A stretch of DNA of 64,000 bases from Escherichia phage 236Ecol005PP. The notes under the pieces are model-generated. The model searched no databases. It had not been told where the DNA came from and saw only the letters and a program-made list of their open reading frames with translations. The stretch lies in the sequence record PP434423.1. One strand, written 5' to 3'. Shown here in pieces: positions 507-47,101 of the stretch. How positions within the stretch are numbered: the stretch's first letter is position 1; each line of letters starts with the position of its first letter. The translations under genes and the position numbers were made by a program.

Positions 507-2486
507 ATGACTTTATTATCTCCGGGCATTGAGCTCAAAGAAACCACGGTTCAAAGCACCGTGGTTAATAACTCTACTGGTACAGCCGCTCTGGCCGGTA
601 AATTCCAGTGGGGTCCTGCTTTTCAAATTAAACAGGTTACAAATGAAGTAGATTTAGTTAATACTTTTGGTCAACCTACAGCTGAAACTGCTGACTATTT
701 TATGTCTGCAATGAATTTCTTGCAATACGGAAATGATTTGCGAGTTGTGCGTGCTGTCGATAGAGATACCGCTAAAAACTCATCTCCGATTGCCGGTAAT
801 ATTGAATACACTATTTCTACCCCAGGTAGTAACTACGCGGTTGGAGATAAAATCACGGTCAAATATGTTTCAGATGCTATTGAAACTGAAGGTAAAATTA
901 CTGAAGTAGACACAGATGGAAAAATTAAGAAAATTAATATTCCTACTGCAAAAATTATCGCTAAAGCTAAAGAAGTCGGTGAATATCCAGAATTAGGTTC
1001 TAACTGGACCGCGGAAATTTCTTCATCTTCCTCTGGTTTAGCTGCAGTAATAACTCTTGGAAAAATTATTACTGATTCTGGTATTTTATTAGCTGAAATT
1101 GAAAATGCTGAAGCTGCTATGACAGAGGTTGGCTTTCAAGCAAATCTCGAAAAATATGGAATTCCAGGAGTAGTAGCTCTTTATCCAGGCGAATTAGGCG
1201 ATAAAATTGAAATTGAAATCGTATCTAAAGCTGACTACGCAAAAGGGGCTTCTGCATTACTGCCAATTTATCCAGGCGGTGGTACTCGTGCATCTACTGC
1301 TAAAGCTGTGTTTGGATATGGACCACAAACTGATTCACAGTACGCTATTATAGTTCGTCGCAATGATGCTATTGTTCAAAGCGTTGTTCTTTCAACTAAG
1401 CGTGGTGAAAAAGATATTTACGATAGTAACATCTATATCGATGACTTTTTCGCAAAAGGTGGTTCAGAATATATTTTCGCAACTGCACAAAACTGGCCAG
1501 AAGGTTTCTCTGGAATTTTAACTTTGTCTGGCGGATTATCATCAAATGCTGAAGTAACAGCAGGAGATTTGATGGAAGCTTGGGACTTCTTTGCTGACCG
1601 CGAATCTGTTGATGTTCAGTTGTTTATTGCGGGTTCTTGCGCCGGCGAATCTTTAGAAACAGCATCTACTGTCCAAAAACACGTCGTTTCAATTGGTGAT
1701 GCTCGCCAAGATTGCTTAGTATTGTGCTCACCGCCGCGCGAAACTGTAGTTGGAATTCCTGTAACTCGTGCTGTCGATAACTTAGTCAATTGGAGAACTG
1801 CGACAGGTTCATATACTGATAATAACTTTAATATCAGTTCAACCTACGCAGCAATTGATGGTAACTACAAGTATCAGTATGACAAATATAATGATGTGAA
1901 TCGTTGGGTTCCATTAGCAGCTGATATTGCTGGTTTATGCGCGAGAACAGATAACGTTTCTCAGACTTGGATGTCTCCGGCTGGTTATAATCGTGGCCAG
2001 ATTCTTAATGTTATTAAACTTGCTATTGAAACTCGCCAGGCTCAGCGCGACCGTTTATACCAAGAAGCTATCAACCCGGTAACCGGTACAGGTGGTGATG
2101 GTTACGTATTGTATGGTGATAAAACAGCTACTTCTGTTCCTTCTCCATTTGATCGTATTAACGTTCGTCGTCTGTTTAATATGTTGAAAACGAATATCGG
2201 ACGTAGTTCAAAATATCGTTTGTTCGAATTAAACAACGCGTTTACCCGTTCATCATTCCGCACAGAAACTGCCCAGTACTTACAGGGAATTAAAGCTCTC
2301 GGTGGAATTTATGAATATCGTGTAGTTTGCGATACAACAAATAACACTCCGTCAGTAATTGATAGAAATGAGTTTGTTGCAACATTCTACATCCAACCGG
2401 CTAGAAGCATTAACTACATTACCTTGAACTTCGTAGCAACTGCTACTGGTGCAGATTTCGATGAGTTAACTGGTCTTGCAGGTTAA
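507..2486 (+). CDS. 18: contractile tail sheath protein
   Basis: 659-aa ORF, same length as T4 gp18 as recalled; position between 17 and 19. Confidence 0.9.
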   Translation: MTLLSPGIELKETTVQSTVVNNSTGTAALAGKFQWGPAFQIKQVTNEVDLVNTFGQPTAETADYFMSAMNFLQYGNDLRVVRAVDRDTAKNSSPIAGNIEYTISTPGSNYAVGDKITVKYVSDAIETEGKITEVDTDGKIKKINIPTAKIIAKAKEVGEYPELGSNWTAEISSSSSGLAAVITLGKIITDSGILLAEIENAEAAMTEVGFQANLEKYGIPGVVALYPGELGDKIEIEIVSKADYAKGASALLPIYPGGGTRASTAKAVFGYGPQTDSQYAIIVRRNDAIVQSVVLSTKRGEKDIYDSNIYIDDFFAKGGSEYIFATAQNWPEGFSGILTLSGGLSSNAEVTAGDLMEAWDFFADRESVDVQLFIAGSCAGESLETASTVQKHVVSIGDARQDCLVLCSPPRETVVGIPVTRAVDNLVNWRTATGSYTDNNFNISSTYAAIDGNYKYQYDKYNDVNRWVPLAADIAGLCARTDNVSQTWMSPAGYNRGQILNVIKLAIETRQAQRDRLYQEAINPVTGTGGDGYVLYGDKTATSVPSPFDRINVRRLFNMLKTNIGRSSKYRLFELNNAFTRSSFRTETAQYLQGIKALGGIYEYRVVCDTTNNTPSVIDRNEFVATFYIQPARSINYITLNFVATATGADFDELTGLAG

Positions 2487-39814: not shown

Positions 39815-40984
39815 TTAAAAATATTTTTTAAAACTCATCATAACTTTATCATCAACATCATTATCAATCTGTGCTACAAGGTAAGATGAAAGTTCTACTT
39901 CTTGTGGCGCGGATTGAACATTATCAGAATTAAGATATTCACGAATCCAAGGATATGGATGTTTAACCGGAGCATCAGTAATTGGGCATGGAAGACCACA
40001 CTGTTTCATACGAGATACAGTTAAGTAATCAATAAAGCTCCACATGCTATTTGTATTTAATCCAGGAACATCGCCATCTTTAAATAAATGAACTGCCCAA
40101 TCTTTTTCTTGGCGGTTAACTTCCATGAAAATATCAACTGCTTCTTGTTCACACTCTTGAGCAATTTTAACCCATTCATCGCCATCAGTACCGGATTGAA
40201 GTTGACGAATAATATATTGAGTGCCTTTAAGGTGAAGCTGCTCATCACGAGCAATGAACTTCATAATCTTGGCATTACCTTCCATGATTTCCATGTTTTT
40301 GTGGAAGTTAAATGTACAGGCGAAAGATACATAAAAACGAATAGCTTCCAATGCGTTGATTACATGAAGGCAAAGATAAAGAGATTTCATTAGTGCTCGT
40401 TTAGTGCATTCAACAACTTTGCCTAGCTCTTCTTTACGAAATCCTTCTGATAAAATTCCTTCATAATCTTCAACCGCATTCTGATATTCACGAGTCTTAA
40501 CTAGAACATCATCGTAATAGCGACCAATGGACTCGGCACGTTTCATGATAGCTTTATCTAATACAATCTCATCAAACACTTTTGACGGATCAGTATAAAG
40601 ATTTCGCATAATATGAGTGTATGAACGGCTGTGAATAGTTTCACTAAAAGTCCATGTAGCAACCCATGTATCAAGGCTTGGGTCTGAAATTAATGACATA
40701 AGTACAGCAGACGGTGCACGACCCTGAATGCTATCTAGAAGTGATTGATACTTCAGGTTATTAGTAAAAATATCTTGCTGATACTGAGGAAGCTTGTTAA
40801 ATTGTGCAGCATCCATCATCAAGTTTACTTCTTCCGGACGCCAGAAAAATGACAACTGCTTTTCGGTTAAATCTTCAAAAACTTTATGGCGTTGAATATC
40901 ATAACGCGCAATACCAAGACCTGAACCGAAGAACATAGGTTCTTTTAAAACATCAACTGGATTTGTATTAAAAACTGTAGACAT
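39815..40984 (-). CDS. nrdB: ribonucleotide reductase small (beta) subunit, uninterrupted
   Basis: 389-aa continuous ORF; no intron. Confidence 0.9.
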   Translation of the reverse strand: MSTVFNTNPVDVLKEPMFFGSGLGIARYDIQRHKVFEDLTEKQLSFFWRPEEVNLMMDAAQFNKLPQYQQDIFTNNLKYQSLLDSIQGRAPSAVLMSLISDPSLDTWVATWTFSETIHSRSYTHIMRNLYTDPSKVFDEIVLDKAIMKRAESIGRYYDDVLVKTREYQNAVEDYEGILSEGFRKEELGKVVECTKRALMKSLYLCLHVINALEAIRFYVSFACTFNFHKNMEIMEGNAKIMKFIARDEQLHLKGTQYIIRQLQSGTDGDEWVKIAQECEQEAVDIFMEVNRQEKDWAVHLFKDGDVPGLNTNSMWSFIDYLTVSRMKQCGLPCPITDAPVKHPYPWIREYLNSDNVQSAPQEVELSSYLVAQIDNDVDDKVMMSFKKYF

Positions 40985-41019: not shown

Positions 41020-41811
41020 TCACATATTGTGTATAAGCACTTCAGTCTGAAATGATGCACCTTTCTTTTGCTTCCTATACATGGTTTCAAAATATTCAAT
41101 TTTGAAATTATTAGAAAGGGCCCAATCTTTTAAAATATAATTATTAATATCGTCTGATAGATTATTAGTGATAATAAATTTAGACTTCGATTGTTTAATT
41201 TTGTCTAATAATTCTAATTCATCCTTTTCTTCCCAGCCTGAATATTTAAATTTAGTAGAAAGATATGGCGGGTCAATGAATAAATTTTTGTTTTCAAAAT
41301 CCAAATCTCTGAATGATTTATTACTAAATGTAAATCTGTGTTGTCTATTTTTAAATTCAGAAAATTTATCCTGCTGAGACTTATTAAAAGAAGTTCTGGA
41401 ATACTTGGCTCTATTGGCGAAAGCCGCGTTATAATTCCCATTACTAGAAAATCGGATTAACGAACTGAATGAAAATAAATGTAGAACATAAAGATATAGT
41501 CCGTTTTTGGTTTTATCGTATTCTTTTGACAGATTATAAAAAGGTGCTGAATCTTTGTCATTCAAATTAAAGTCTTCAATAATTTGAACTATATCATTAA
41601 TTGAAGATGATTTCATCTTATTATACATATCTATAAGAGGAGTATTAATATCATTACATATAACATCTCTCTGACAATTCATAGAAAATCCAAGACCACC
41701 ACAAAAAGCATCCAAAACAGGCTTATCGTCAAAGCGGTTTGAAAATTGTCTAATAAATGGCATATACTTATGTTTTGCACCTGGATATGTTATGGCAGGT
41801 AGGTCTTTCAT
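41020..41811 (-). CDS. Dam-family N6-adenine DNA methyltransferase
   Basis: 263-aa ORF with N-terminal YPGAK, motif I DAFCGGLG and motif IV FIDPPY in the order typical of alpha-class Dam enzymes. Confidence 0.7.
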   Translation of the reverse strand: MKDLPAITYPGAKHKYMPFIRQFSNRFDDKPVLDAFCGGLGFSMNCQRDVICNDINTPLIDMYNKMKSSSINDIVQIIEDFNLNDKDSAPFYNLSKEYDKTKNGLYLYVLHLFSFSSLIRFSSNGNYNAAFANRAKYSRTSFNKSQQDKFSEFKNRQHRFTFSNKSFRDLDFENKNLFIDPPYLSTKFKYSGWEEKDELELLDKIKQSKSKFIITNNLSDDINNYILKDWALSNNFKIEYFETMYRKQKKGASFQTEVLIHNM

Positions 41812-41854: not shown

Positions 41855-42844
41855 TCATAATTTACAGGATGAACAATCTTCAGCTTTTGGAGTTTCTATT
41901 TCGTAATCATCAGTACCGGAACCATCACGAGTATTATGATAATAGAAGTTTTTAATGCCATAATACCATCCATATAGCATGTCATCAATCATTATTGACA
42001 TTGGAACCTTTCCTTTTGGAAAAATCTGCGGGTCATAATATGTATTCGCTGAAGCTGATTGACATACCCATTTAAGCATAATAGCTACCTGCGTAAGATA
42101 AGGTTTATTACCTTTCTTAGCTAATTTCCACGTATAATCATATAGGTCTATGTTATGTTCAATATTGGGCACGACTTGATTAAAGGAACCCTCTTTTGAT
42201 TCTTTAACAGAGACTGGTCCACGTGGAGGCTCGATACCATTAGTACTGTTAGAAACTTGGGAAGATGACTCACATGGCATAAGTGCTGATAATGTGCTAT
42301 TACGGATGCCAAAGAGCTTAAGGTCTTCCCGCAGCGCCGACCAGTCACAAACGTATTTTGGAGCTGCGATTTGGTCAATCTTTTTATTGTACCAGTCGAT
42401 AGGTAATTCGCCTCGAGACCAACGAGTGTCTGAATAATATTCGCAAGGTCCTTTTTCTTTGGCGAGCTTAATGGATGCTTTAATGAGTCCATACTGTAAT
42501 CTCTCAAATAGTTCATGTGTTAAATCGTTAGCATCTTCATAAGAAGCAAAGTTACTTGCCAGCCAAGCTGCATAGTTAGTAACACCTACACCAAGATTTC
42601 GACGCTTTTTAGCTTTTTCTGCTTCAGGAACTGGATATCCTTGGTAATCCAAAAGATTATCAAGAGCACGAACTTGGACTTCTGCTAATTCATTAATTTT
42701 ATCTTGGTCTTGCCAATCGAAGTTATCCAACACAAATGCGCTAAGGGTACAAAGCCCCACTTCTCCCTTGTTTTCAATAACTTCTATTGTAGTATACTCA
42801 TCATCTTCGTAAAATTCATCTACAAATTCATAATCAATATTCAT
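41855..42844 (-). CDS. nrdA: ribonucleotide reductase large subunit, C-terminal fragment
   Basis: 329-aa ORF; acidic 22-aa leader then GEVGLCTLSAF, ...LSALMPCESSSQVSNSTNGIEPPRG..., C-terminal CSSCKL typical of class Ia NrdA. Confidence 0.85.
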   Translation of the reverse strand: MNIDYEFVDEFYEDDEYTTIEVIENKGEVGLCTLSAFVLDNFDWQDQDKINELAEVQVRALDNLLDYQGYPVPEAEKAKKRRNLGVGVTNYAAWLASNFASYEDANDLTHELFERLQYGLIKASIKLAKEKGPCEYYSDTRWSRGELPIDWYNKKIDQIAAPKYVCDWSALREDLKLFGIRNSTLSALMPCESSSQVSNSTNGIEPPRGPVSVKESKEGSFNQVVPNIEHNIDLYDYTWKLAKKGNKPYLTQVAIMLKWVCQSASANTYYDPQIFPKGKVPMSIMIDDMLYGWYYGIKNFYYHNTRDGSGTDDYEIETPKAEDCSSCKL

Positions 42845-43544
42845 TTAATTCTTCTACCTTTTTTCTAGTAATTCCTAAAGCTTTAGATGCTCGATGTATT
42901 GATTGATATTCTATACCGTTTATTTTTACAGCAATTAAGTTATGGGGTTTTAATCCCTTTGGATGAGGTTTACTGACGAAAACTAAATTATCAAGCTCTG
43001 AAATCTTATCCAATTTCTTACACTTAAATCCTTTGTGATGCGCCCGTTTACCTTTACAAACGGCTGACATCGCAGATGGATTTAAATTATGCTCTTTACA
43101 AAATTCGTTAAGACCTCGATGAATTTCCTCATGACCATCTGGAAATGTAAACACCCAAGACGTTTGAAGTCGAGATTTAACTTCTGGAGACATAGGAATA
43201 CCTTTGTTCCAGGCCGGTTTGCCTTTATTATTTTCAGATACAGAAATAGCCAATTTTCTTCTAAGCCACCCATGTCGTTTATTGGTGTTCTTTCGTTCAA
43301 TATTATCTTCAGAATAAACACACATCATATTAGCGGCAAATATCAATTTATGATTATCTGGATATATCTTTACTAATAATTGATGAGCTATGTAATGCTC
43401 TTCTGGTGTCAAATCTACCAGGTTTTCCTTTGTATCAGAACCACCAATACACAGAGGTATAATATGATGTGATTCGGTATAGCAATCTAATTTTCTGTTC
43501 TTAGCTTTAGAAATAAGGTTATTGTAAATTTTAGAATAATCCAT
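42834..43544 (-). CDS. HNH homing endonuclease inserted within nrdA
   Basis: 236-aa ORF with HNH motif (HHIIPLCIGGSDTKENLVDLTPEEHYIAH) and C-terminal HTH-like segment; AGAGGA SD upstream; 3' end overlaps start of nrdA C-fragment. Confidence 0.8.
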   Translation of the reverse strand: MDYSKIYNNLISKAKNRKLDCYTESHHIIPLCIGGSDTKENLVDLTPEEHYIAHQLLVKIYPDNHKLIFAANMMCVYSEDNIERKNTNKRHGWLRRKLAISVSENNKGKPAWNKGIPMSPEVKSRLQTSWVFTFPDGHEEIHRGLNEFCKEHNLNPSAMSAVCKGKRAHHKGFKCKKLDKISELDNLVFVSKPHPKGLKPHNLIAVKINGIEYQSIHRASKALGITRKKVEELNEY

Positions 43545-43589
43545 AACTTTTCCTCTTGTTATGGATTATTTATTAACGGTCTGTGTACT
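42834..43589 (-). mobile_element. free-standing homing-endonuclease insertion splitting nrdA
   Basis: HNH ORF plus 45-nt leader lies exactly between the two nrdA pieces; too little non-ORF sequence for a group I intron core. Confidence 0.65.
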
Positions 43590-45023
43590 TTATTTGCTTT
43601 GAATTATACCGCCAGGATTAGCTTCATAAAACTTAGCTACATCCGACTTCTTAATTTTAATTAAACGGGTTTGTTGACTATTCACATCATTTGTTGGAAT
43701 AGCAATTTCACAACACAAGTTACTCTGACGAATAGGTGCTTTTTCACGAATAAATGGAGTATAGTTATTCGTATTATCAATGAACTGCACATAAATCCTT
43801 GCTGTTCCTGAGCGTTCAGTCATTAGCAATTCAAACAGTTCACGGGCTTTAATACGCTTTTTACGAATATTAGGGTCTTTTTCTGCGGCTTCATATAATT
43901 CACGGAAACGGTCTTGGTCTTTAAAATAAGAATAATAAAGCTCACCACCCATTTCATGTGGACTGAACAAAGTAATGTAGTCGTTCTTTCCAAAACGTTC
44001 CATCATCAAATCATTCAGCTGGACGCCATAATCCATATGACGGATACGGTTTTCTTCTACACCTTTGTTATTTTTCAAAACGAGAAGATTTTCAACTTCC
44101 AAATGCCAAATAGGATAATAAGCAGTAGCAGCGCCGCCACGAATTCCACCCTGTGAGCATGATTTAACAGCAGTCTGAAAATGTTTCCAAAAAGGAATAA
44201 CACCAGTATGGCGTACTTCACCTGTACCAATCTTAGAACCTTCGGCACGAATCATACCAACGTTAATACCAATTCCAGCGCGTTTGGAGATATATTCAAC
44301 AATTGAAGCGGAAACCTTATTGATAGACTTCAGCGAATCACCTGCCTCAATAACAACACATGAACTAAACTGTCGAGTCGGAGTACGACAGCCAGCCATA
44401 ATAGGAGTTGGCAATGAAATCTGTCGAGTAGATACTGCTTCATAAAAACGAATAACGTGTTTTAGTCTATCAACAGGTTCATCTTGATGCAATGCCATTC
44501 CAATAGTCATAAATGCAAACTGCGGAGTTTCATAAATTTGACCAGTGGTTTTATCTTTAACTAGATATTTTTCTTTTAATTGCATCGCCCCGGAATAAGT
44601 AAATTCCATATCCCGCTCATGCTTAATTTTTGATTCTAAAAATGTAATTTCTTCTGCTGAATATTTTGACAGCAGTTCAGGGTCATATTTACCTTCATTT
44701 ACACAGTAAGAAATATGGTCAATAAATGAACGTGGTTCATATTGTCCGTAAACATGCTTACGAAGAGCAAACATTAAACAGCGTGCAGCTACATATTGAT
44801 AATCAGGCTCTTCAACTGAAATAGAATTCGCAGCAGCCTTAATTACAATGGTTTGAATGTCATCAGTGGTCATTCCATCACGGAGATATGATTTAATATT
44901 TTCATATAATTCATAAGGATCTACAGATGTTCCTTCAGCTGCCCAAGATAAAACTTTAATAATTTTTTGCGGGTCAAAGCTCTGAGAAACACCACTACTT
45001 TTGATAACATTAATTAATTGCAT
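43590..45023 (-). CDS. nrdA: ribonucleotide reductase large subunit, N-terminal fragment
   Basis: 477-aa ORF with ATP-cone-like N-terminus and active-site motif SNLCCEIAIPT, then a 29-aa Lys-rich non-homologous tail and stop. Confidence 0.85.
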   Translation of the reverse strand: MQLINVIKSSGVSQSFDPQKIIKVLSWAAEGTSVDPYELYENIKSYLRDGMTTDDIQTIVIKAAANSISVEEPDYQYVAARCLMFALRKHVYGQYEPRSFIDHISYCVNEGKYDPELLSKYSAEEITFLESKIKHERDMEFTYSGAMQLKEKYLVKDKTTGQIYETPQFAFMTIGMALHQDEPVDRLKHVIRFYEAVSTRQISLPTPIMAGCRTPTRQFSSCVVIEAGDSLKSINKVSASIVEYISKRAGIGINVGMIRAEGSKIGTGEVRHTGVIPFWKHFQTAVKSCSQGGIRGGAATAYYPIWHLEVENLLVLKNNKGVEENRIRHMDYGVQLNDLMMERFGKNDYITLFSPHEMGGELYYSYFKDQDRFRELYEAAEKDPNIRKKRIKARELFELLMTERSGTARIYVQFIDNTNNYTPFIREKAPIRQSNLCCEIAIPTNDVNSQQTRLIKIKKSDVAKFYEANPGGIIQSK

Positions 45024-45580: not shown

Positions 45581-45892
45581 TTACACCGCCATTTTTCCTT
45601 TAATAGGAGGGTGTGATTCGTAACCTTTAAGAACGAAATCTTTAGGCCTGAGTTTAAGAGTGTATTCCAATTGTTCTTTAGTAGAAAGATAGCGGAATTT
45701 ATAAGGCAATCCGCCTATTACCAGTTCACAAAGCTCTTTAGGTTCACGACGTAAAATTTCTTTACATTGTTCTACGTGATTCATATAGATATGAGTATTA
45801 CCACCAGAAAATATCAAATCTCCTGGAATAAGATTACACATCTTAGCTACAATATGAACTAACGCAGCATATGATGCAATATTAAATGGAAG
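45581..45892 (-). CDS. td: thymidylate synthase, exon 2
   Basis: Encodes LPFNIASYAALV... (TS C-terminal domain); track ORF start ATG is the last three intron nucleotides. Confidence 0.85.
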   Translation of the reverse strand, partial: LPFNIASYAALVHIVAKMCNLIPGDLIFSGGNTHIYMNHVEQCKEILRREPKELCELVIGGLPYKFRYLSTKEQLEYTLKLRPKDFVLKGYESHPPIKGKMAV

Positions 45893-46146
45893 CATTATGT
45901 TCAGATAAGGTCGTTAATCTTATCCCGGAATTATATCCAGCTGCATGTCACCATACAGATCAGACTATATCTCCATCTTGATGAAGCAAGATGTCTATCG
46001 TTTCGAGTCACTTGACCCTACTCCCCAAAGGGATAGTCGTTAGGCATTTAGTTCAAAAGAACATTTAGCACGGGATTGTCTACTAGAGAGGTTCCCCGTT
46101 TAGATAGATTACAAGTATAAGTCACCTTATACTCAGGCCTCAATTA
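45893..46146 (-). other. group I self-splicing intron in td, ORF-less (about 254 nt)
   Basis: Exon 1 ends ...GTT TTC TTG GGT then TAATTGAGGCCTGAGTATAAGGTGACTTATACTTG...; intron ends ...CTGAACATAATG; both ends match the T4 td intron as recalled; no ORF inside. Confidence 0.8.
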
Positions 46147-46695
46147 ACCCAAGAAAACATCTACACTTCTTTGGTACCATTGTAAATCAAGATAACCATT
46201 ACGCACATTAAACTGATAGAACATATGACAGGGCGGTAATGCCATTTGATTGATTTCAGCTGGATTCCATGCTGAAACGATTTGACGTCGATCAGTTGGT
46301 AATTTTTTAATACGATCAATAGTTTCAACTAATTGATCCACACCACCGAAATCACGCCATTGTTTACCGTATATAGGACCAAGTTCACCACTATGATATC
46401 CTAGGTCTTTAGCCTGGTTTTCATAGTTATCGTCCCAAATAGTTTTACCTTGAATAAGACTACCATGAGTGCGAAGACGTAAATCATTAACATTGGTAGA
46501 ACCGGAAATAAACCATAGAAGCTCAGCAATGCAAGCTTTCCAAGCGAGCTTCTTAGTCGTTACTGCAGGAAAACCTTTAGTTAAATCCCAACGTAATTTA
46601 GTACCGAACAAAGCAATTGTTCCTGTGCCTGTTCGGTCATCGGTTTCATAGCCATTTTCAAAAATGTCTTTAATTAAATCTTGGTATTGTTTCAT
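46147..46695 (-). CDS. td: thymidylate synthase, exon 1
   Basis: 183 codons ending ...PPCHMFYQF...QRSVDVFLG (TS active-site Cys region). Confidence 0.85.
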
Positions 46696-46774: not shown

Positions 46775-47101
46775 TCAGGAGTGAAATATATTTTCTTTAC
46801 CACGTTTGGAAAAGCGACCAATAATATGATAATTATTCTCATCAAACGTGATATTGCCAATATCCATAGCTTTCAACCAAATATCGATATTTCTGTCAAG
46901 CTTTATATCAAAATTCCAATACGGAGAACTATTACCGAAAATACTGCAAGCGGATTCAGTGAAACAACTGCTATAAATCTTGTCTTTAGGAACTACTAAT
47001 TGATAGACGCCTTTAATAAACTGAGGACCCTGCCATTTTGGCTGTTTCGCGTCTTTTTCTAATAGAATAGGATAATAATTAAAGTTCATATTTTCCGCCA
47101 T
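46775..47101 (-). CDS. hypothetical protein (108 aa)
   Basis: ORF between frd and td. Confidence 0.45.
   Translation of the reverse strand: MAENMNFNYYPILLEKDAKQPKWQGPQFIKGVYQLVVPKDKIYSSCFTESACSIFGNSSPYWNFDIKLDRNIDIWLKAMDIGNITFDENNYHIIGRFSKRGKENIFHS

What the first reader, a model, noticed from the sequence alone, without database searches (positions are those of the whole stretch)
45893..46146. Compact ORF-less group I intron in td at the T4 insertion site
The two td exons (183 + 103 codons) are separated by about 254 nt. The 5' splice junction (TTGGGT | TAATTGAGGCCTGAGTATAAGG...) and the 3' end (...CTGAACATAATG | CTT CCA TTT) match the T4 td intron as I recall it, but the whole interval is far too short to hold the I-TevI reading frame, which T4 carries in a peripheral loop. 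The intron is therefore a minimal catalytic core whose homing endonuclease is deleted or was never acquired.
Basis: partly seen in the sequence, partly recalled or inferred. Interest (0 to 1): 0.6.

Follow-up and report, generated by a model that had tools for sequence, protein, structure and literature searches.

The report
Endonuclease-free td intron, hybrid with nrdD intron
The thymidylate synthase gene of this T4-like phage carries a 254-base self-splicing intron at exactly the T4 position; it has no homing-endonuclease gene, and the small hairpin in that gene's place is letter-for-letter the one found in a sister intron (nrdD), so the endonuclease was probably erased by recombination between the two introns.

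Summary
Rfam scores the interval as a group I intron (72.7 bits, E=1.6e-16). Joining the exons gives an intact 286-aa Td.

The intron is the T4 td core. Its first 84 nt are identical to T4, and the last 158 nt differ at 7 positions. The 774-nt P6a stem plus I-TevI gene is replaced by a 12-nt hairpin, GUUC-UUUU-GAAC. No I-TevI homolog occurs anywhere in the 64 kb. All helices P1-P9.2 are present and supported by compensatory changes.

The new point is origin. Intron nt 43-113 (71 nt, including the hairpin) are identical to the common "N2-type" nrdD (sunY) intron of Tequatroviruses. A second 254-nt td allele (phage GRNsp7) carries the P6a of T4's own nrdD intron. The endonuclease gene was therefore most likely removed by ectopic recombination between paralogous introns, not by plain deletion or by never being acquired.

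The identical intron is already in GenBank (HMD-9, N2; CJY920 and SP21535 carry the same hairpin allele), annotated only as two thymidylate synthase CDSs. It is a variant of a very well known element, of moderate interest.

The parts
46147..46695 (-). td exon 1 (183 codons, ends ...GTT TTC TTG GGT). If the RNA is not spliced, the frame runs straight into the intron's first triplet, TAA.
45893..46146 (-). Group I intron (subgroup IA type with P7.1/P7.2), 254 nt, no ORF. The first nt is U at 46146 and the terminal guanosine (omega-G) is at 45893.
   Evidence: Rfam RF00028, 72.7 bits; alignment to the T4 td intron; helices
45581..45892 (-). td exon 2 (103 codons plus stop). The 104-aa ORF listed at 45581..45895 starts at the intron's last three bases (AUG), which is an ORF-calling artefact.
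46133..46152 (-). P1. The last six exon bases UUGGGU (46152-46147) pair with the internal guide GCCUGA (intron nt 9-14, 46138-46133). The U.G wobble is at the 5' splice site.
   Evidence: PMC2729099 uses 5'-UUGGGU-3' as the td P1 substrate
46034..46104 (-). Intron nt 43-113 (J3/4, P4, P5, P6, P6a, J6/7, start of P7). This 71-nt block is identical to the N2-type nrdD intron. In ORF-bearing td introns only the 42 nt upstream and 17 nt downstream of P6a are shared with it.
46051..46062 (-). P6a hairpin GUUC-UUUU-GAAC (intron nt 85-96). It stands where T4 has an 8-bp P6a stem and the I-TevI gene (774 nt).
45963..46038 (-). P7 (nt 109-114 pairs with nt 179-184, the guanosine-binding helix; it forms the pseudoknot with P3). 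It encloses P7.1 (115-117/122-124), P7.2 (129-133/138-142), the 3' strand of P3 (148-153) and P8 (154-160/167-173). P7 is identical to T4.
45904..45958 (-). P9 (nt 189-195/200-206), P9.1 (207-211/218-222) and P9.2 (223-228/238-243).

Best explanation
This is a functional, endonuclease-free allele of the T-even td group I intron. How it works is inferred from near-identity with the T4 td ribozyme. The pre-mRNA folds into P1-P9.2. An external guanosine bound in P7 attacks the U.G-marked 5' splice site. The freed exon 1 then attacks after the terminal G. GGU is joined to CUU and a full-length thymidylate synthase is translated. With no I-TevI the intron cannot home by itself. It still splits the I-TevI recognition sequence, so this td allele should be immune to cleavage by I-TevI from co-infecting phages. 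Origin: the P6a stem and I-TevI gene of an ordinary td intron were replaced by the short P6a hairpin of the paralogous nrdD (sunY) intron. This happened through homologous recombination or gene conversion across the core sequences the two introns share (42 nt on one side, 17 nt on the other). Shown here: the anatomy, the conservation of structure and the exact shared block. Inferred: splicing activity, immunity and the direction of transfer (nrdD to td).
For: Identity as an intron: Rfam hit. The 5' 84 nt are identical to T4, and the 3' 158 nt differ at 7 positions, all in P8, J7/9, P9 or P9.2. An unconstrained MFE fold recovers P2-P6a, P7.1, P7.2, P8 and P9-P9.2. In 11 td-type introns 97.9% of pair cells are standard pairs against 30-43% when partners are slid, 12 pairs change on both sides, and 0/500 shuffles reach the observed values. 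Every hairpin is kept in every variant. Td is intact after joining the exons. td constructs with shortened P6a regions fold and self-splice (PMC2729099). Loss of the HEG: no I-TevI homolog in the 64 kb. Phage WL-3 has a 1016-nt intron with intact I-TevI whose core is 100% identical to this one. Exchange with nrdD: there is a 71-nt exact block with the N2-type nrdD intron, while the flanks are only 48% and 63% identical. The 12-nt hairpin matches 12/12. Independently, the GRNsp7 td intron carries CAGCAGTAGCTG, the P6a of T4's own nrdD intron, within a 28-nt exact block. Direction: the block is in about 45-48 phage records in nrdD but only 4 in td. nrdD introns show their own related P6a polymorphism (FL23). 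nrdD-like introns with this P4/P6 sequence are widespread in IMG/VR. A laboratory precedent recalled from memory and not verified here: Bryk & Belfort 1990, Nature 346:394, spontaneous domain shuffling between T4 introns.
Against: No RNA or biochemical data exist for this allele, and its 4-bp P6a is shorter than the 8-bp T4 stem. The direction of transfer rests on allele frequency, not on a rooted phylogeny. The N2-type nrdD intron could instead have received the 71-nt patch from an ORF-less td intron. The rest of this phage's genome (nrdD) is outside the window, so a donor in the same genome cannot be checked. HMD-9 and CJY920 show the block only in td. The whole-molecule fold z-score is modest (-2.1).
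Confidence: 0.7

Rival explanations
1. This is the ancestral, never-invaded td intron. The short P6a is the original state, I-TevI entered other copies later, and the N2-type nrdD intron acquired its 71-nt P4-P6 block from such an ORF-less td intron.
For: Group I introns are thought to be ancestrally ORF-less (PMC3073962). 71 related compact phage introns almost all have a short P6a hairpin. The N2-type nrdD P4-P5 is td-like while the T4-type nrdD P4-P5 is not, so some td-to-nrdD flow is conceivable.
Against: The allele is rare in td (4 records) and common in nrdD (about 45). A second td allele (GRNsp7) carries a P6a that sits in a non-td-like nrdD context in T4, where the direction can only be nrdD to td. 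The divergent td intron L043 and the CE1/BYEP01 class keep the T4-type UGUAG...CUACA stem without an ORF, which is a better candidate for the ancestral td P6a. The WL-3 core is identical.
Confidence: 0.18
2. I-TevI was lost by a simple internal deletion, and the remaining bases later evolved into a hairpin, with no involvement of another intron.
For: Other td alleles clearly arose this way. HP3-type (320 nt), Klebsiella phage EI (315 nt) and G28-type (445 nt) keep I-TevI remnants, and CE1/BYEP01 (262/263 nt) keep the T4 stem closed by UUUG at a TT/TTG microhomology. The window hairpin begins GUUCU, like the 3' strand of the T4 P6a.
Against: It requires a chance 12/12 identity with the nrdD P6a (about 6e-8 per comparison), and a second such coincidence in GRNsp7.
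Confidence: 0.06
3. The td/nrdD chimera is an assembly artefact created by the repeat the two introns share.
For: The two introns share 42-nt and 17-nt repeats, which could confuse an assembler.
Against: A path back into td 3' sequence would need a branch at a 17-nt repeat, which is shorter than usual assembly k-mers. The same allele occurs in four independent GenBank records with different td exons (HMD-9, N2, CJY920, SP21535). The window contains no I-TevI sequence at all.
Confidence: 0.02
4. td is a dead, split pseudogene and the interval is a decaying relic that no longer splices.
For: None beyond the absence of experimental data.
Against: Both exons are intact and in frame. The core is identical to working T4 sequence. 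The structure is maintained through compensatory changes. The intron shows 0/242 differences from phages whose exons differ by 10-14%.
Confidence: 0.02

Closest known systems
Phage T4 td group I intron (1016/1017 nt, encodes I-TevI)
   Same: Same gene, same insertion point (after GGT of Gly183), same P1 guide, the same core sequence apart from 7 substitutions, and the same in-frame UAA at the first intron triplet.
   Different: It lacks the 8-bp P6a stem, the I-TevI gene and its promoters/operator (774 nt), and has a 12-nt hairpin instead. It is not self-mobile.
Laboratory ORF-deleted td ribozymes (shortened P6a constructs)
   Same: About 250-270 nt, the same core, and the P6 loop removed. Such constructs fold and self-splice (PMC2729099).
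   Different: Those keep td-derived or designed P6a sequence. This allele is natural and its P6a comes from another intron.
Tequatrovirus nrdD (sunY) intron, N2-type
   Same: An exact 71-nt P4-P5-P6-P6a-J6/7 block.
   Different: P1, P2, P3, P7.1, P7.2, P8 and P9.x are different. It sits in nrdD and carries an I-TevII-like ORF in its 3' part.
td/sunY domain-shuffled hybrid introns obtained in the laboratory (Bryk & Belfort 1990, recalled from memory, not retrievable here)
   Same: Exchange of a structural domain between paralogous T4 introns through short shared core sequences, yielding a hybrid that splices.
   Different: Those were selected in the laboratory. This is a naturally circulating allele, and here the swap also removes the homing endonuclease gene.
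[quoted passage not shown]
   Same: The intron is retained and the endonuclease lost. Intronless, full-length, decaying and ORF-less td alleles coexist in one phage genus.
   Different: Here the loss looks like a single templated replacement, not gradual decay.

Membership tests
Group I self-splicing intron (Rfam RF00028) | Conserved core helices P3-P9 with the P3/P7 pseudoknot, scored by a covariance model | tested here: met
   72.7 bits against a gathering score of 50, full model 1-253. All helices located. 97.9% paired with 12 compensatory pairs.
Group I self-splicing intron (Rfam RF00028) | P1 formed by the 5' exon and an internal guide sequence, with U.G at the 5' splice site | tested here: met
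   UUGGGU pairs with GCCUGA, and U(-1) pairs with G. This matches the td P1 substrate published in PMC2729099.
Group I self-splicing intron (Rfam RF00028) | Terminal guanosine (omega-G) at the 3' splice site | tested here: met
   The intron ends ...AUAAUG at 45893.
Group I self-splicing intron (Rfam RF00028) | Guanosine-dependent self-splicing activity | not testable with these tools
   Inferred only. P7, J8/7, J6/7, P3 and P4 are identical to the experimentally active T4 td intron.
T-even td intron lineage | Insertion at the same td codon boundary as in T4 | tested here: met
   Identical junctions TTGGGT|TAATTGAGG and ATAATG|CT in the window and T4.
T-even td intron lineage | Subgroup IA peripheral helices P7.1 and P7.2 between P7 and P3 | tested here: met
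   CCC-UUUG-GGG and GGGUC-AAGU-GACUC, with covariation in L043.
Mobile (homing) group I intron | An intron-encoded homing endonuclease gene | tested here: not met
   The longest intron ORFs are 31-32 aa on either strand. There is no I-TevI similarity in the window.
Inter-intron hybrid (domain-shuffled) intron | A block identical to a paralogous intron, bounded by sequence typical of the resident intron | tested here: met
   71/71 identity to the N2-type nrdD intron against 48% and 63% in the flanks. A parallel case exists in GRNsp7 (28-nt block).
Collaborative / trans homing pair (ORF-less intron plus a free-standing endonuclease aimed at its insertion site) | A free-standing endonuclease gene next to the intron-bearing gene whose target is the intron insertion site | tested here: inconclusive
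   No endonuclease gene flanks td in the window. The nearest is the HNH gene inside nrdA, 2.0 kb away, whose target is unknown. Phage N2 has a free-standing GIY-YIG gene near td, but it is only 46% identical to I-TevI and its DNA-binding half is divergent.

The most novel reading that the evidence does not exclude
Paralogous introns in T-even phage genomes act as repair or recombination templates for one another. In nature this has repeatedly (at least twice in td) erased the I-TevI gene in one step, producing endonuclease-free, cleavage-immune, splicing-competent hybrid introns. That would be a templated exit from the homing-endonuclease life cycle, known so far (as far as I could establish) only as a laboratory curiosity. 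SEA1's P9.2, which is identical to the nrdB intron, suggests all three T-even introns trade domains.
Probability: 0.55. Interest if true: 0.5.

Novelty: new variant of a known kind. Interest (0 to 1): 0.4.

Why it matters
[quoted passage not shown] A 2010 review stated that all T-even introns described by then carry their own endonuclease (PMC2993671). Public Tequatrovirus genomes in fact hold the whole series of td states: intronless, full-length, decaying ORF, cleanly ORF-less, and td/nrdD hybrids. This makes the homing-endonuclease life cycle, and domain exchange between ribozymes, directly testable in a tractable phage system. Practically, these introns are not annotated. td is deposited as two separate 'thymidylate synthase' CDSs, the second starting at the intron's last AUG, so annotation pipelines miscount genes and miss the ribozyme.

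Tried and rejected
(1) I did not try to build a covariance model of the 288-column alignment, because I expected calibration at that length to exceed the tool's time limit. I used per-hairpin folding and pair counting instead.

(2) My first hand-drawn structure had overlapping P1/P2 and P7/P7.1 bases and a wrong P7.2 (GAGU/ACUC). Covariation in L043 corrected it to GGGUC/GACUC and to CCC/GGG with a 4-nt loop.

(3) MAFFT misaligned the different P6a length classes, and also P8 of SEA1 and L043. P6a was therefore left out and judged. Most 'not paired' cells in P1-P3 come from the misaligned L043 row.

(4) The IMG/VR pattern scan returned 64 stretches, but only one lies in a td gene. The motif is a general core motif of this intron family, not td-specific.

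It was the nrdD intron, and that hit led to the origin hypothesis.

(6) Sandegren & Sjoberg 2004 (JBC 279:22218), Bryk & Belfort 1990 and Belfort 2009 are not in the library. I could not check whether natural ORF-less or hybrid td introns were already described there.

(7) Collaborative homing by a neighbouring free-standing endonuclease was considered. Nothing suitable flanks td in the window.

(8) I tried to infer ancestry of the P6a alleles from linked core substitutions. This failed because P6a state and 3'-core haplotype occur in all combinations, which indicates recombination inside the intron.

Full report
OBSERVATION

The td gene lies on the minus strand. ORF listing and direct reading show exon 1 at 46147-46695 (183 codons ending GTT TTC TTG GGT). 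A 254-nt interval at 45893-46146 begins TAATTGAGGCCTGAGTATAAGG and ends CTGAACATAATG. Exon 2 at 45581-45892 covers 103 codons plus the stop. Both junction strings are identical to those of T4 td in AF158101. Joining the exons gives a 286-aa protein with no internal stop, matching T4 Td at 265 of 287 aligned positions, stop included. Rfam's group I intron model matches 45941-46156 (minus strand) over its full length at 72.7 bits (gathering score 50, E=1.6e-16). It is the only Rfam family hit in the 64 kb.

ANATOMY

Aligned to the T4 intron (1017 nt in AF158101.6), the first 84 nt are identical. The last 158 nt differ at seven positions: four in P8 (two of them a compensatory U-A/A-U swap in the stem), one in J7/9, one in P9 (a U.G pair in the window where T4 has C-G) and one in P9.2. 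Everything between, namely the 8-bp T4 P6a stem, the I-TevI gene and its control region (774 nt), is replaced by 12 nt, GUUC-UUUU-GAAC.

The helices were located on the sequence as follows (corrected):
- P1: UUGGGU with GCCUGA, with U.G at the splice site.
- P2, P3, P4, P5, P6 (G78-C103, C79-G102) and P6a.
- P7: identical to T4, forming the pseudoknot with P3.
- P7.1, P7.2, P8, P9, P9.1 and P9.2.
- The terminal G.

An unconstrained minimum-energy fold recovers every nested helix except P1; P7, the pseudoknot partner of P3, cannot be drawn in a nested fold (z = -2.1). Published work uses 5'-UUGGGU-3' as the td P1 substrate, names G78 as the first P6 pair, and shows that td constructs with shortened P6a regions fold and self-splice (PMC2729099).

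No ORF longer than 32 aa lies in the interval. tblastn with I-TevI finds nothing in the whole window (best E = 0.61).

IS THE STRUCTURE UNDER SELECTION?

I collected td-site introns from annotated phage genomes and one divergent td intron from IMG/VR. Folding each hairpin segment separately shows that every helix is kept in every variant, with different sequences in P6a, P7.1, P7.2, P8, P9 and P9.2.

On the 11-sequence alignment A1, with P7 written as a pseudoknot and P6a omitted because MAFFT misaligned it:
- 97.9% of pair cells are standard pairs, against 30-43% when partners are slid by 1-3 columns.
- 12 pairs change on both sides.
- No shuffle out of 500 reaches the observed values.

Some of these 'compensatory' differences turn out to be whole-helix replacements from other introns (see below). 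That still shows the helices are interchangeable modules that must pair.

HOW COMMON IS IT?

In 50,697 phage records, 747 hold a td match and 274 hold td-intron sequence. About 36 of these carry short forms. The P6a region sorts them into classes:
- 1016-1017 nt, with intact I-TevI: T4, AV121, WL-3.
- About 445 nt, with 5' and 3' remnants of the ORF: G28, vB_EcoM_112, F1.
- 320 nt and 315 nt, with ORF remnants: HP3-type and Klebsiella phage EI.
- 262/263 nt, T4 stem closed by UUUG, consistent with a deletion at a TT/TTG microhomology or with the pre-invasion state: CE1, PD112, 215Ecol, BYEP01.
- 254 nt with GUUC-UUUU-GAAC: the window, HMD-9, N2, CJY920 and the truncated record SP21535.
- 254 nt with CAGC-AGUA-GCUG: GRNsp7.
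- 250 nt with GUUC-GAAA-GAAC: SEA1, a Gelderlandvirus.

The window's intron is 100% identical to those of HMD-9 and N2. Those records annotate only two 'thymidylate synthase' CDSs. A 2010 review states that the T-even introns described by then all encode their own endonuclease (PMC2993671). I found no paper describing natural ORF-less td introns, but the most relevant paper (Sandegren & Sjoberg 2004) is not held.

RECENT HISTORY

Phage WL-3 has a full-length intron with an intact I-TevI, and its core is identical to the window's at all 242 shared positions. P6a state and the 3'-core haplotype occur in all combinations. For example, CJY920 has the window hairpin with a T4-type P8/P9, and BYEP01 has the T4 stem with a window-type P8/P9. 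Recombination therefore occurs inside the intron.

The intron is far more conserved than its exons. There are 0/242 core differences against N2 and WL-3, and one against GRNsp7, while the exons differ by 10-14%. At the exon rate, P(0 differences) is at most about 2e-11. Identity ends 10-20 nt upstream of the 5' splice site. Intron haplotypes therefore move between td alleles, as the title of Sandegren & Sjoberg 2004 already suggested.

ORIGIN OF THE 12-nt HAIRPIN

The single metagenome contig that contains the window's P6a with its flanks is not td. Its P1/P2, P7.1/P7.2 and P9 regions differ, and an ORF starts in its 3' part. In annotated phages this sequence lies in the anaerobic ribonucleotide reductase gene nrdD with a homing endonuclease. 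It is the nrdD (sunY) intron, and it is present in N2, GRNsp7, CE1 and 215Ecol among many others.

The window td intron and this 'N2-type' nrdD intron share an exact 71-nt block (td intron nt 43-113: J3/4, P4, P5, P6, P6a, J6/7 and the start of P7). The flanks are only 48% (5') and 63% (3') identical. ORF-bearing td introns share with it exactly the 42 nt upstream and 17 nt downstream of P6a. A double crossover or gene conversion across those arms would turn a WL-3-like td intron into precisely the window allele.

Independently, the GRNsp7 td hairpin CAGCAGTAGCTG is the P6a of T4's own nrdD intron (a 28-nt exact block). There it sits in a P4-P6 context that is not td-like, so in that case the direction can only be nrdD to td.

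For the window allele the direction is less certain. Three points favour nrdD to td:
- The block occurs in about 45-48 records in nrdD and only 4 in td.
- nrdD introns have their own related P6a variants, such as FL23 GTTTTTAGAAAAAC.
- nrdD-like introns with this P4/P6 sequence and assorted short P6a hairpins are widespread in IMG/VR.

SEA1's td intron also shares an exact 25-nt P9.2 block with the T4 nrdB intron, so exchange among the three T-even introns appears general. From memory, Bryk & Belfort (Nature 1990, 346:394) obtained such domain-shuffled T4 introns in the laboratory. I could not retrieve that paper.

MECHANISM

By homology with the T4 td ribozyme (inference), an external guanosine bound in P7 attacks the phosphate after U(-1) of P1. 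Exon 1 then attacks after the terminal G, joining GGU to CUU. Unspliced RNA would terminate at the UAA that opens the intron, as in T4. Without I-TevI the intron is not self-mobile. It can spread only by ordinary recombination, or if an endonuclease is supplied in trans. Because it splits the I-TevI homing site, the allele should resist I-TevI from co-infecting phages (inference from the established homing mechanism; PMC2988022).

RIVALS

An ancestral, never-invaded intron that donated its block to nrdD remains possible (about 0.18). A plain deletion followed by hairpin evolution would need two 12/12 coincidences (about 0.06). Assembly artefact and dead pseudogene are very unlikely, given four independent records, intact exons, the conserved structure and the absence of any I-TevI sequence.

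VERDICT

The element is a natural endonuclease-free allele of a very well known intron. The identical sequence is already in public genomes, though unannotated. The additional result is that it is a td/nrdD hybrid, which gives a concrete and testable mechanism for endonuclease loss. Novelty: a new variant of a known kind. Interest: moderate (0.4).

Noticed in passing
window 41855-45023 (minus strand): nrdA is split into two genes by an HNH endonuclease gene. The N-part is 43590-45023 (477 aa): it diverges from T4 NrdA after ...CCEIAIPTNDVNS and has a 28-aa tail with several lysines. The HNH / I-HmuI-NUMOD endonuclease is 42834-43544 (236 aa). The C-part is 41855-42844 (329 aa) with an acidic leader of about 28 aa before GLCTLSAF. 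The break falls between the equivalents of E. coli Cys439 and Cys462, as in the functional 'genes-in-pieces' NrdA-a/MobE/NrdA-b of Aeromonas phage Aeh1 (PMC3045599). No intron was detected there. The same arrangement is in many GenBank Tequatroviruses, including Manna, FL33, fPS-90, HY01 and BYEP01.
   Followed up: partly
window 41020-41811 (minus strand): A 263-aa D12-class N6-adenine DNA methyltransferase ORF (Pfam E=1.2e-23) sits between nrdA and nrdB, where T4 has mobE and nrdB.1. nrdB (39815-40984) is uninterrupted, so it has no nrdB intron.
   Followed up: no
window 46775-47101 (minus strand): A 108-aa ORF of unknown function (phrog_1928, no Pfam hit) is inserted between frd and td, which overlap directly in T4. 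The HMD-9 record calls its homolog a 'putative dihydrofolate reductase', for which I found no support.
   Followed up: partly
L043 (IMGVR_UViG_3300027859_000006), about 1898-2163, minus strand: A divergent td (about 47-61% aa identity to the window's two exons) carries an ORF-less intron with a closely related core and a T4-like P6a stem (UGUAGAAAG...UUCUACA). It is inserted 21 nt (7 codons) upstream of the T4 site, between ...WHQR and SVDVFLG. From memory, this offset resembles the one reported for the Bacillus phage beta22 thy intron.
   Followed up: partly
L007 (Salmonella phage SEA1, Gelderlandvirus), td intron nt 215-239: The P9.2 region of SEA1's 250-nt td intron (CGGGTTGAGAATTAGCGAGCTCAAT) is identical over 25 nt to the T4 nrdB intron. 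This is a second kind of inter-intron domain swap. The intron is about 90% identical to the window's, while the Td proteins are only about 71% identical.
   Followed up: partly
L003 3824-4555 (phage N2, between the nrdA.2 homolog and nrdA, opposite strand): In a phage with the same ORF-less td intron, a free-standing GIY-YIG endonuclease is annotated 'I-TevI'. It is only 46% identical to I-TevI: the catalytic half is similar and the DNA-binding half is divergent. The window has no such gene.
   Followed up: partly
L083 versus L081/L082 (nrdD introns of T4 versus N2 and GRNsp7): Two nrdD-intron types circulate. The T4-type has its own P4-P6 sequence and P6a CAGCAGTAGCTG (about 25 records, many of them T4 strains). 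The N2-type has a P4-P5 identical to td over 42 nt and P6a GTTCTTTTGAAC (about 45 records). FL23 is N2-type with P6a GTTTTTAGAAAAAC.
   Followed up: partly
GenBank records PV287714, ON645936, ON229909, OR757453, MN106245 and others: ORF-less td introns are not annotated. td is given as two CDSs, the second starting at the intron's terminal AUG. The Klebsiella phage EI record notes 'with intron of plasmid pMTL007C-E2', presumably (my inference, not checked) a match to a cloning vector that carries td-intron sequence.
   Followed up: no
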